From Schmidtea polychroa (taxonomy: Eukaryota), in assembly GCA_044892525.1 (NCBI GenBank), contig CM097885.1, positions 1,302,001-1,366,000 of the forward strand: DNA of 64,000 bases. The letters run 5' to 3'. Both the position numbers and the translations under genes were made by a program. The notes beneath the pieces were generated by a model. The model saw nothing but the letters and a program-made list of their open reading frames with translations, was not told the DNA's origin and ran no database searches. Positions 18,656 through 19,463 of this stretch are shown one piece after another. Positions within the stretch are counted from its first letter, which is position 1, and each line of letters starts with the position of its first letter.

Positions 18656-18743
18656 GCCATTATAGCGGAGTGGGAATAGGCTTCAATTTTATCACCGGGA
18701 GTACCGGGTTCAATTTTCGATTTTGGTTTCGATATTTTTTTTT
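18656..18743 (+). ncRNA. tRNA-like Pol III cassette 1
   Basis: A box TAGCGGAGTGG (18663), B box GGTTCAATT, 72-nt tRNA spacing, T run 18735-18743; anticodon stem unpaired. Confidence 0.55.
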
Positions 18744-18891
18744 CAACGGAATCTGATTCAGCGTACTGATTTTAGTATATATTTAAATTTTCAGATGGAT
18801 CTGAGTGGTAGTTGTCGAGAAAATGAATAATTAATTATCAATTTCATCAATAAATAGTCACACATTAACAACTTATTTTATATTGAATATA

Positions 18892-18972
18892 GCTCTAATA
18901 GCTTAGTGGTAATAGCACTCGACTGCATTGCCAATACCAATGGGTTCAAATCCCATTTCGGTCATTTTTTTT
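18892..18972 (+). ncRNA. tRNA-like Pol III cassette 2 (tRNA-Cys-like 5' half)
   Basis: A box TAGCTTAGTGG, perfect T arm ATGGG-TTCAAAT-CCCAT, GCA at anticodon position, T8 run; anticodon stem unpaired. Confidence 0.7.
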
Positions 18973-19133
18973 CAAATTTTTATTAACGAAATATTGATCA
19001 GCATACTCGATTTAGTACTTGTACAAATTTTTAATGAGATTGGTCAACGGCAACTCTTGGAAATTTAAGATCAAAAACGTTTTAACTTAAGCTACCAAAA
19101 ATTAATATATCCAATAAAAAAATATTTATAAAA

Positions 19134-19430
19134 ATGGATGAGTTAAAAGAAAGAATGAGAAATGAATTGAATGAAGTTAAACATAAGAGAATGAAAAGAA
19201 GAGAAGAAGAACCATTAGAATACATCAAAGAGTTGATGGTAGATAATGAAAAGTATCGACATTTTTATATGAAGGCTGTAGATGTTGCTGATATAAGATT
19301 GAAGAAAATGAAACAATTACAGGAAAGAGTTAAAGAACTTGAATTGATAATTTATAGTCTAAAAAATGACAAAAATCCAATCCTAGATAGCGCAGTGAGA
19401 ATAGACTGGCACAGTGGTTCAAATGGATAG
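19134..19430 (+). CDS. Small charged coiled-coil protein, unknown function
   Basis: 98-aa ORF with the same ATATCCAATAAAAAA...TAAAAATG leader as polB. Confidence 0.6.
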   Translation: MDELKERMRNELNEVKHKRMKRREEEPLEYIKELMVDNEKYRHFYMKAVDVADIRLKKMKQLQERVKELELIIYSLKNDKNPILDSAVRIDWHSGSNG

Positions 19431-19463
19431 TGGTTCAAATCACATCTGAGGTTAGTTTTTTTT
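19381..19463 (+). ncRNA. tRNA-like Pol III cassette 3 at inner edge of right TIR
   Basis: A-box-like TAGCGCAGTGA, B box GGTTCAAATC, 72-nt spacing, T8 run. Confidence 0.55.

What the first reader, a model, noticed from the sequence alone, without database searches (positions are those of the whole stretch)
18656..19463. Cluster of tRNA-sized Pol III cassettes in element A (VA-RNA/TMER-like or insulators)
Seen: three mutually divergent 72-nt units (18656, 18892, 19381) plus a fourth at 6140-6070 (copy at 32997). Each has A and B boxes at tRNA spacing and a T8-9 run after it, but an unpaired anticodon stem, so none is a working tRNA. Units 1 and 2 share a degenerate downstream block (AACG.AAT.TGAT.CAGC.TACT.GATTTAGTA), implying an old duplication with the promoter boxes preserved. 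Known: adenovirus VA RNAs, EBERs and MHV68 TMERs are viral Pol III RNAs, and tDNA boxes can act as chromatin boundaries. Inference: viral small RNAs or TFIIIC insulators bracketing the coding region.
Basis: partly seen in the sequence, partly recalled or inferred. Interest (0 to 1): 0.82.

Follow-up and report, generated by a model that had tools for sequence, protein, structure and literature searches.

The report
tRNA-derived Pol III-type units in a Maverick
A very abundant virus-like Maverick transposon in an animal genome carries three related, decayed tRNA look-alikes that keep the signals of small-RNA genes, one of them built into both of its end repeats; they are not working tRNAs, and whether they are transcribed is untested.

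Summary
Three tRNA-sized units (18656, 18892, 19381, + strand) each have an A box, a B box starting at position 52, and a T8-9 run. The "fourth" unit (6141-6070, - strand) is the inverted-repeat twin of unit 3.

They lie in a Maverick/Polinton (5472-20493) whose capsid-gene search returned about 3,000 candidates in a 781-Mb genome.

None is a working tRNA. Only unit 2 passes Rfam tRNA, marginally (32.4 vs 29 bits). ARAGORN finds none, and the anticodon stems are unpaired.

The units are paralogues belonging to the element; I found no evidence for a host SINE.
- All three share the 33-nt A-B spacing and T8-CAA.
- Units 1 and 2 also share a downstream block.

Across 48 copies, units 1+2 have no shared substitutions (0/145 columns vs 11/234 in spacers, p=0.008), while private changes are as frequent as in spacers. 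However, 23/48 copies lack unit 2's 5' acceptor strand, and at least 83 elements lack units 1-2 altogether. Unit 3 is hypervariable but keeps its B box.

Best reading (about 0.55): conserved Pol III/TFIIIC-type units acting through their promoter signals, not through a tRNA-like fold. No expression evidence could be obtained. They do not fit TMER or VA RNA architecture.

The parts
5472..20493 (.). Element A: Maverick/Polinton carrying the units
   Evidence: The outer inverted repeats 5472-5974 and 19991-20493 are 503 nt long and 100% complementary (I12). Pfam hits: pPolB PF03175 (8998-10527), A32-type ATPase PF04665 (15050-15856), rve integrase PF00665 (16015-17277), double jelly-roll capsid PF21738 (17307-18599).
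17307..18599 (-). Major capsid protein gene, divergent from unit 1
   Evidence: PF21738, E = 2.3e-25. The genome search gave 3242 candidates. All 98 of the 98 scored matches are 99-100% identical open frames.
18656..18727 (+). Unit 1: degenerate tRNA-like unit with A box 18663-18673 and B box 18707-18717
   Evidence: No Rfam tRNA hit at E<=10. ARAGORN calls it only at 85% thresholds. Fold z = +0.20. The window copy lacks 8 nt that 46 of 48 copies have.
18735..18743 (+). T9 run after unit 1 (terminator-like)
18746..18781 (+). Downstream block 1, homologous to block 2
   Evidence: None of its 36 columns has a shared variant.
18892..18964 (+). Unit 2: the best-preserved tRNA-like unit, with A box 18899-18909 and B box 18943-18953
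   Evidence: Rfam RF00005 scores 32.4 bits against a threshold of 29, and 26.7-35.8 bits in other copies. Fold z = -2.45. The 66-nt core occurs exactly 1071 times in the genome.
18965..18972 (+). T8 run after unit 2
18985..19020 (+). Downstream block 2
19134..19430 (+). Optional 98-aa ORF whose 3' end overlaps unit 3
   Evidence: No Pfam family. Present in 10 of the 30 capsid-anchored copies.
19381..19452 (+). Unit 3: tRNA-like unit at the inner end of the right inverted repeat, facing outwards; it has two B-box-like words (19416 and 19432)
   Evidence: It is hypervariable: 15 of 72 columns carry shared variants and pi is 0.093.
19456..19463 (+). T8 run after unit 3
6070..6141 (-).
32997..33078 (+). 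The same unit in the arm of a second, partial element copy
   Evidence: (I18).

Best explanation
The units are three paralogous descendants of a tRNA gene that this Maverick lineage carries as its own sequence. They have lost tRNA function but keep a complete type-2 RNA polymerase III gene layout: A box, B box at the canonical distance, and an oligo-T terminator.

The most likely mechanism is inferred, not shown. TFIIIC would bind the boxes, TFIIIB would sit on the AT-rich upstream DNA, and Pol III would make RNAs of roughly 75-90 nt ending in a U run.

What has been preserved is the promoter layout rather than a tRNA-like fold. The payoff is therefore more likely to lie in TFIIIC/Pol III occupancy or transcription itself than in a structured, tRNA-mimicking RNA. 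Examples would be keeping the divergent capsid and polymerase-side promoters open, or acting as a boundary at the inner edge of each inverted repeat.

Unit 3 is a core part of both inverted repeats in every form of the element that I saw. Units 1-2 are an accessory tandem module present in the most numerous subfamilies.
For: 1. The layout is canonical in all three units: A box at position 8, B box at position 52, 33 nt between them, and T8-9 followed by CAA.

2. The units are paralogues.
- Unit 1 and unit 2 are homologous from the B box through the T run and a 36-nt block (score 44 vs shuffles 18.4 +/- 2.5).
- Unit 3 shares ATAGCG.AGTG.GAATAG with unit 1, and GGTTCAAATC.CAT...T8CAA with unit 2.
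- Box columns are identical in all three at 16/22 positions against 10/43 elsewhere (p = 1.7e-4). This comparison is partly circular.

3. There is constraint in the propagating lineage.
- Among 48 non-overlapping copies, 0/145 columns of units 1+2 carry a substitution shared by two or more copies, against 11/234 in spacers of the same module (Fisher p = 0.008).
- Private changes are equally frequent: 10/145 vs 22/234, p = 0.45.

4. The units are intrinsic to the element.
- 30 of 30 capsid-anchored copies have units 1, 2 and 3.
- 12 of the 13 capsid genes on contig C1 below 67.5 Mb have an exact unit 2 core about 300-370 nt upstream. I cross-read this.

5. Unit 3 sits in both arms and faces outwards. 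Its B box (19432-19441) has no shared variant, although 15/72 columns of the unit vary.

6. No ORF explains the conservation. The longest stop-to-stop frame over units 1-2 is 54 aa.
Against: - No RNA or occupancy evidence exists.
- Only unit 2 reaches the Rfam tRNA threshold, and only just. ARAGORN at default settings finds none.
- Units 1, 3 and 4 fold no better than shuffled sequence.
- 23 of 48 copies carry a 9-nt deletion that removes unit 2's 5' acceptor strand. In this sample it lies mostly in copies that also lack the small ORF.
- One copy, L081, has unit 2's T run interrupted.
- At least 83 elements have the capsid gene directly next to unit 3 with no units 1-2, and 13 have the ORF but no units 1-2. 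Units 1-2 are therefore dispensable for the element's existence.
- Unit 3's haplotypes are mosaics in which 5' and 3' acceptor halves are mixed without regard to pairing.
- In unit 3 the boxes are not significantly less variable than the rest: about 2/21 vs 13/51 columns, counted by me.
- The constraint test rests on few events and on linked sites in related copies.
Confidence: 0.55

Rival explanations
1. The units are inert relics. The viral ancestor carried real tRNA genes, as some polinton-like viruses and virophages do, or captured host ones. What remains are decaying pseudogenes with no present role, and the boxes persist only because they were the most conserved part to begin with and the family is young.
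For: - tRNA genes are documented in polinton-like viruses and virophages: 558 Rfam tRNA hits in 8,300 genomes (PMC12220804, section 16, passages read).
- tRNA scores are marginal or absent.
- Deletion variants of units 1 and 2 are common among copies.
- Forms without units 1-2 exist.
- Folds are not significant for 3 of the 4 units.
Against: - The three paralogues have diverged at most non-box positions yet all keep the boxes, the exact spacing and the T run.
- Units 1+2 have 0/145 shared substitutions against 11/234 in adjacent spacers, with equal private mutation.
- Unit 3 is kept in both arms in every form seen.
Confidence: 0.3
2. The conserved stretch is part of the Pol II regulatory region shared by the divergent capsid gene and the rightward ORF. 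Under this reading the tRNA likeness is historical and Pol III is not involved.
For: - Units 1-2 lie between the capsid start (18599) and the ORF (19134).
- Unit 3/4 lies about 50-105 nt from the first gene at each end.
- The blocks after the T runs contain palindromes (TGATTCA and TGATCA), and block 1 has 0/36 shared-variant columns.
Against: This does not explain why all three paralogues keep tRNA geometry plus a T8-9 run on the same strand. Elements without units 1-2 still have open capsid frames next to unit 3 (cross-read).
Confidence: 0.1
3. The units are insertions of a dispersed tRNA-derived host SINE into the element.
For: A DNA search with unit 2 alone returned nothing, not even the query itself. 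The tRNA model's first look gave 112,431 rough candidates genome-wide.
Against: - The units end directly in a T run, with no SINE body or tail.
- The exact unit 2 core occurs 1071 times, fewer than the capsid candidates (3242).
- Wherever the partial capsid list overlaps, unit 2 sits at the fixed distance from the capsid gene (12 of 13).
- The module boundaries show 5-7-nt microhomologies typical of slippage deletions, not clear target-site duplications around single units.
- Context could not be checked for most of the 1071 places.
Confidence: 0.03
4. The boxes and T runs coincide by chance in AT-rich DNA.
For: T8 runs are as common as expected by chance (107 vs 93.9). The loose A-box pattern is not enriched (11 vs 7.0).
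Against: The composite pattern occurs in 0 of 300 shuffles. The B-box word occurs 8 times against 2.8 expected. Unit 2 gets a significant tRNA covariance-model hit, and the units are homologous to each other.
Confidence: 0.01

Closest known systems
tRNA genes carried by polinton-like viruses and virophages (PMC12220804, section 16; passages read)
   Same: These are small tRNA-type genes inside the genome of a Polinton-related virus-like element, and they are the likely evolutionary source of the units.
   Different: Those are reported as tRNA calls and are discussed as codon compensation. Here the anticodon stems are unpaired, ARAGORN finds none, and two of the three units fail the Rfam tRNA model. 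One unit is built into both inverted repeats of an animal Maverick.
Murid herpesvirus 68 TMERs (tRNA-miRNA encoded RNAs; recalled, not tested against a model)
   Same: Both are virus-borne, non-aminoacylatable tRNA-like units with internal A and B boxes, arranged as a cluster near one genome end.
   Different: As recalled, TMERs carry pre-miRNA hairpins between the tRNA-like part and the terminator. Here the T run follows the unit at once, and the RNA fold is not conserved.
Adenovirus VA RNA (RF00102) and EBV EBERs
   Same: Both are viral genes with internal Pol III promoter boxes and an oligo-T terminator.
   Different: Neither family matches at E<=10 over 5000-21000. VA RNAs and EBERs are about twice as long and strongly structured (recalled). 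Three of the four units here fold no better than shuffled sequence.
tDNA / TFIIIC (ETC-type) chromatin boundary elements (recalled from yeast and mammalian work)
   Same: The box-bearing units flank a transcription domain, and what is preserved is the boxes rather than the RNA fold. The unit 3 pair brackets the coding region.
   Different: No occupancy or boundary assay exists here. Known examples are host loci, not parts of a virus-like transposon's inverted repeats.
tRNA-derived SINE heads
   Same: Both are degenerate tRNA-like sequences that retain A and B boxes.
   Different: There is no SINE body or tail, a terminator abuts each unit, and copies sit at a fixed place in the Maverick.

Membership tests
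tRNA (Rfam RF00005) | Covariance-model score at or above the gathering score (29 bits) | tested here: inconclusive
   Unit 2 scores 32.4 bits. Other copies of unit 2 score 26.7-35.8 bits. Units 1 and 3 and the left-arm twin give no hit at E<=10.
tRNA (Rfam RF00005) | Cloverleaf with a paired anticodon stem and acceptor stem | tested here: not met
   In unit 2 the anticodon stem has 2/5 pairs and the acceptor 5/7. ARAGORN finds 0 genes at default and -ps settings. 23 of 48 copies lack the 5' acceptor strand.
Type-2 Pol III gene | A box and B box at tRNA-like spacing | tested here: met
   The A box is at position 8 and the B box at position 52 in all three units.
Type-2 Pol III gene | Oligo-T terminator shortly after the unit | tested here: met
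   T9, T8 and T8 runs begin 1-8 nt after the units. The majority form of unit 1 has T7 directly after GGTCAA.
Type-2 Pol III gene | Transcription by Pol III / TFIIIC binding | not testable with these tools
   No run on record as RNA holds the stretch, and only contigs were available.
MHV68 TMER-like | Pre-miRNA stem-loops between the tRNA-like part and the terminator | tested here: not met
   The T run follows each unit directly.
Adenovirus VA RNA (RF00102) | Match to the family model | tested here: not met
   No match at E<=10 in 5000-21000.
tRNA-derived SINE | Dispersed copies independent of the host element, with a body/tail and target-site duplications | tested here: inconclusive
   There is no body or tail. 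12 of the 13 checkable capsid genes have unit 2 at a fixed distance.
Maverick/Polinton (the carrier) | Protein-primed PolB, rve integrase, double jelly-roll capsid, packaging ATPase, long inverted repeats | tested here: met
   Pfam hits; the 503-nt perfect inverted repeats.
Maverick/Polinton (the carrier) | Cysteine protease, minor capsid protein, target-site duplication | tested here: inconclusive
   No Pfam hit at E<=0.01 for the remaining ORFs. No direct repeat at the ends of this copy.

The most novel reading that the evidence does not exclude
An animal Maverick has made tRNA-derived Pol III/TFIIIC units an integral working part of its genome. One unit faces outwards at the inner edge of each inverted repeat in every form seen. 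An extra tandem pair (units 1-2) is present in the subfamilies that are by far the most numerous by exact-match counts (1071 exact unit 2 cores vs 83 exact 'basic' junctions). On this reading, recruiting the host Pol III machinery helps the element stay expressed, or escape silencing, and spread. As a side effect it would seed the host genome with thousands of new TFIIIC/Pol III sites.
Probability: 0.25. Interest if true: 0.75.

Novelty: new variant of a known kind. Interest (0 to 1): 0.5.

Why it matters
Mavericks/Polintons are treated as protein-coding virus-like transposons. Small Pol III-type genes are known from herpesviruses and adenoviruses, and true tRNA genes from polinton-like viruses.

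Five full-text searches turned up no paper describing conserved, non-tRNA, box-bearing units built into a Maverick's inverted repeats.

If the units are active, each of roughly one to three thousand copies would add three or four Pol III/TFIIIC sites. That could affect chromatin domains, Pol III load and small-RNA pools in the host. It would also offer a concrete handle on how such an element reaches thousands of copies.

If they are inert, they still record that the viral ancestor carried tRNA genes.

Tried and rejected
- Expression: no RNA holder was listed. The four runs laid are Logan contigs whose RNA label is a guess, so depths and uncovered parts say nothing about transcription. I used only two joints from them, and both forms were then found in the assembly itself.
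- Relatives elsewhere: the capsid protein found no relatives in metagenome or viral contigs, so there is no cross-species test of box conservation.
- Divergent families in the same genome: the Pfam capsid model found only this family, at 85-97 bits. One fetched copy at 92% identity (L081) still has all the units.
- A DNA search with unit 2 alone returned nothing, not even the query itself. I take this as a likely effect of the tool's common-word filter, not as absence; an exact pattern found 1071 places.
- Compensatory changes in unit 3's acceptor stem: I looked by eye and found none. The haplotypes are mosaics.
- A TMER-like or VA-like reading was rejected on layout and on Rfam.
- The small ORF 19134-19430 has no family.
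- Literature: searches (listings and abstracts) gave no paper on tRNA-like Pol III units in Mavericks. Passages read, on a guess about the host group, concern Maverick abundance and other giant transposons only. I do not name the host.
- Earlier scan notes for this genome: none.

Full report
**What is there**

The stretch 18656-19463 lies inside a 15-kb element (5472-20493).
- The element is bounded by 503-nt, 100% complementary inverted repeats (I12).
- It encodes a protein-primed PolB, an A32-type ATPase, an rve integrase and a double jelly-roll capsid protein. It is therefore a Maverick/Polinton.
- The window is AT-rich, with GC of 0.19-0.35.
- It belongs to a 781-Mb assembly with four very large contigs.
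- The host's own tRNA-Lys and tRNA-Arg genes are canonical and sit in tandem arrays.
- The element is extremely abundant. A capsid-protein search gave 3242 first-look candidates, and all 98 scored matches were 99-100% identical open frames.

**Observation**

The three units exist as described.
- Each has an A box at position 8, a B box at position 52, and a T8-9 run 1-8 nt after the unit.
- A composite pattern written from them hits only the five unit copies in the window. It hits none in 0 of 300 dinucleotide shuffles. The pattern is post hoc, so this is descriptive.
- T8 runs by themselves are not enriched.
- The downstream block shared by units 1 and 2 is real: alignment score 44 against shuffles of 18.4 +/- 2.5.

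The "fourth" unit (6141-6070, - strand) is not independent.
- The left arm is the right arm minus two stretches, 18607-19359 and about 19545-19990.
- So the fourth unit is unit 3's twin in the other inverted repeat. Both face outwards, towards the termini.
- In most elements the 19625-19925 segment is present in both arms, 13.6-14.4 kb apart.

**Are they tRNAs?**

No.
- ARAGORN finds no tRNA in the window. With loosened thresholds it calls unit 2 at 90% and unit 1 at 85%, and never unit 3 or its twin.
- Rfam's tRNA model hits only unit 2, at 32.4 bits against a threshold of 29. The alignment shows anticodon stem 2/5, acceptor 5/7, D stem 3/4 and T stem 5/5 pairs. Other copies of unit 2 score 26.7-35.8 bits.
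- Only unit 2 folds better than shuffled sequence (z = -2.45), and its minimum-energy fold is not a cloverleaf. Units 1 and 3 and the twin give z = +0.20, -0.55 and +0.58.
- No other Rfam family matches the region at E<=10, apart from two chance-level hits elsewhere in the element.

**Forms of the element**

Of 30 loci fetched by the capsid protein alone, 30 have units 1, 2 and 3.
- 10 also have the 98-aa ORF 19134-19430.
- 20 lack 19089-19335. The break has the microhomology AACTT.

Contigs of public runs showed two further joints, and both forms exist in the assembly.
- Capsid start directly next to unit 3's upstream sequence, with no units 1-2 and no ORF: 83 exact matches of a gapped pattern, control 0. 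Several of these lie beside the more divergent capsid genes listed.
- Capsid start joined to the ORF without units 1-2: 13 exact matches.

By comparison, the exact 66-nt core of unit 2 occurs 1071 times, control 0.

Unit 3 is therefore part of every form seen and of both arms. Units 1-2 are an accessory tandem module, present in the forms that are most numerous by exact-match counts. These counts require exact identity, so they are lower bounds and older forms are under-counted.

**Element-borne or host SINE?**

- Each unit ends directly in a T run, with no SINE body or tail.
- Of the 13 capsid genes that lie on contig C1 below 67.5 Mb (the range listed), 12 have an exact unit 2 core about 300-370 nt upstream of the capsid start. 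I cross-read this from the two lists.
- Unit 2 cores (1071) do not outnumber capsid candidates (3242).
A minority of solo copies cannot be excluded.

**Paralogy and constraint**

All three units share the 33-nt A-B distance, the AATAG after the A box, and T8 followed by CAA.
- Columns identical in all three: 16/22 in the boxes against 10/43 elsewhere (p = 1.7e-4).
- This is partly circular, because the units were recognised by their boxes and all tRNAs share them.

A less circular test uses 48 non-overlapping copies (3 overlapping loci dropped).
- Substitutions shared by two or more copies arose in propagating lineages. They occur in 0/145 columns of units 1+2, against 11/234 columns of the spacers in and around the same module (Fisher p = 0.008).
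- The same figures hold in the 30 capsid-anchored copies.
- Private changes, which reflect post-insertion decay, are equally frequent: 10/145 vs 22/234, p = 0.45.
- Mean diversity is 0.0035 for unit 1 and 0.0023 for unit 2. That is lower than the capsid coding sequence (0.0144) and the spacers (0.015-0.018).
- No ORF covers the units; the longest stop-to-stop frame is 54 aa.

**Evidence that cuts the other way**

- 23 of 48 copies carry a 9-nt deletion that removes unit 2's 5' acceptor strand but leaves the A box. One such copy, L050, scores below the tRNA threshold.
- The window's own unit 1 lacks 8 nt that 46 of 48 copies have.
- One 92%-identical copy has unit 2's T run interrupted.
- Unit 3 behaves oppositely to units 1-2. 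15 of its 72 columns carry shared variants and pi is 0.093, about six times its flanks.
- Its haplotypes are mosaics in which 5' and 3' acceptor halves are combined without regard to pairing.
- Its B box (19432-19441) has no shared variant. Its A box has two, both purine-purine. With so few columns the box-versus-rest contrast in unit 3 is not significant.
- Why a 72-nt body is so much more variable than its nearly invariant flanks is unexplained. Exchange between the two arms, or with other copies, is a possibility that I could not test.

**Mechanism**

Shown: the sequence layout, the paralogy, the fixed place in the element, and a modest signal of constraint on units 1-2.

Inferred: that TFIIIC and Pol III use these units.

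The acceptor strand can be lost in a copy class that makes up nearly half of the sample, three of the four units have no significant fold, and unit 3's body changes freely while its B box and terminator stay. I therefore favour a role that depends on the promoter signals themselves rather than on a tRNA-shaped RNA. That role could be occupancy or transcription next to the divergent first gene at each end, or a boundary at the inner edge of each inverted repeat.

My odds:
- Functional Pol III/TFIIIC units: about 0.55. Within that I cannot separate "the RNA matters" from "the bound DNA matters".
- Inert relics of virus-borne tRNA genes: about 0.3.
- Pol II regulatory DNA with a tRNA past: about 0.1.
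- Host SINE or chance: a few per cent together.

**Comparison with what is known**

- tRNA genes are reported in polinton-like viruses and virophages: 558 Rfam hits in 8,300 genomes (PMC12220804, section 16, passages read). That is the likely origin of these units.
- The units work most like viral internal-promoter Pol III genes. However, they fail the TMER layout (no hairpins before the terminator) and the VA model.
- As DNA elements they resemble tDNA/TFIIIC boundary sites. That resemblance is recalled, not tested.
- Five full-text searches found no paper on such units in Mavericks.
- This scan noted, in another genome, a Polinton with a Pol III-type hairpin gene just inside one end (e1-7468399 and e1-7468532). 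Those are unchecked notes that I did not test. They suggest the theme may recur.

**Verdict**

This is a new variant of a known kind: tRNA-derived, non-tRNA Pol III-type units integral to an animal Maverick. Expression is wholly untested.

Noticed in passing
window 19640-19909 (right inverted repeat): This GC-richer segment of the repeat has 20 to over 100 times the word depth of the capsid gene in the four runs laid. In most elements it is present in both arms, but this copy's left arm has lost it (about 445 nt). I cannot tell whether this reflects extra copies elsewhere or abundant RNA.
   Followed up: partly
window 6180-6250 and 18578-18606: The inner end of the inverted repeat runs into the capsid gene. 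The left arm carries a stump of the capsid start (seven shared codons, then a stop after the eighth) just upstream of the 913-aa ORF. The same short promoter region therefore faces the first gene at both ends.
   Followed up: partly
window 16015-17277 (-): The integrase ORF has a phospholipase A2-like domain (PF08398, E = 3.9e-9, residues 66-147) ahead of the rve core. As I recall, this domain family is known from parvovirus capsid proteins.
   Followed up: no
L051-L073 (G000:C4:76.658-76.669 Mb); L074-L080: Host tRNA-Lys(UUU) genes form a tandem array on a 424-bp period, with at least 23 identical copies. tRNA-Arg(UCG) genes form arrays with 278-bp spacing on several small contigs.
   Followed up: partly
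window 2656-3351, 23790-24965, 40013-41164, 42214-43218, 62481-62990: A second repeated element has ORFs that combine an endonuclease VII-like motif with the N-terminal part of a protein-primed PolB. There are also large inverted duplications (41702-44799 vs 60900-63997; 45034-47622 vs 57764-60352).
   Followed up: no
window 20297-20320 and 20489-20512; ends at 5472 and 20493: The DNA just outside the right end repeats a sequence from inside the inverted repeat. No target-site duplication is visible, which suggests that this copy sits in or beside another copy's arm.
   Followed up: partly
window 20895-21720, 25488-25647, 35885-37246: Arrays of 29-31-bp tandem repeats flank the element copies.
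   Followed up: no
window 19381-19452 and copies (L001-L050): Unit 3 is about six times more variable than its nearly invariant flanks and occurs as recombinant haplotypes. One copy has lost the 16 nt between the two B-box-like words.
   Followed up: partly
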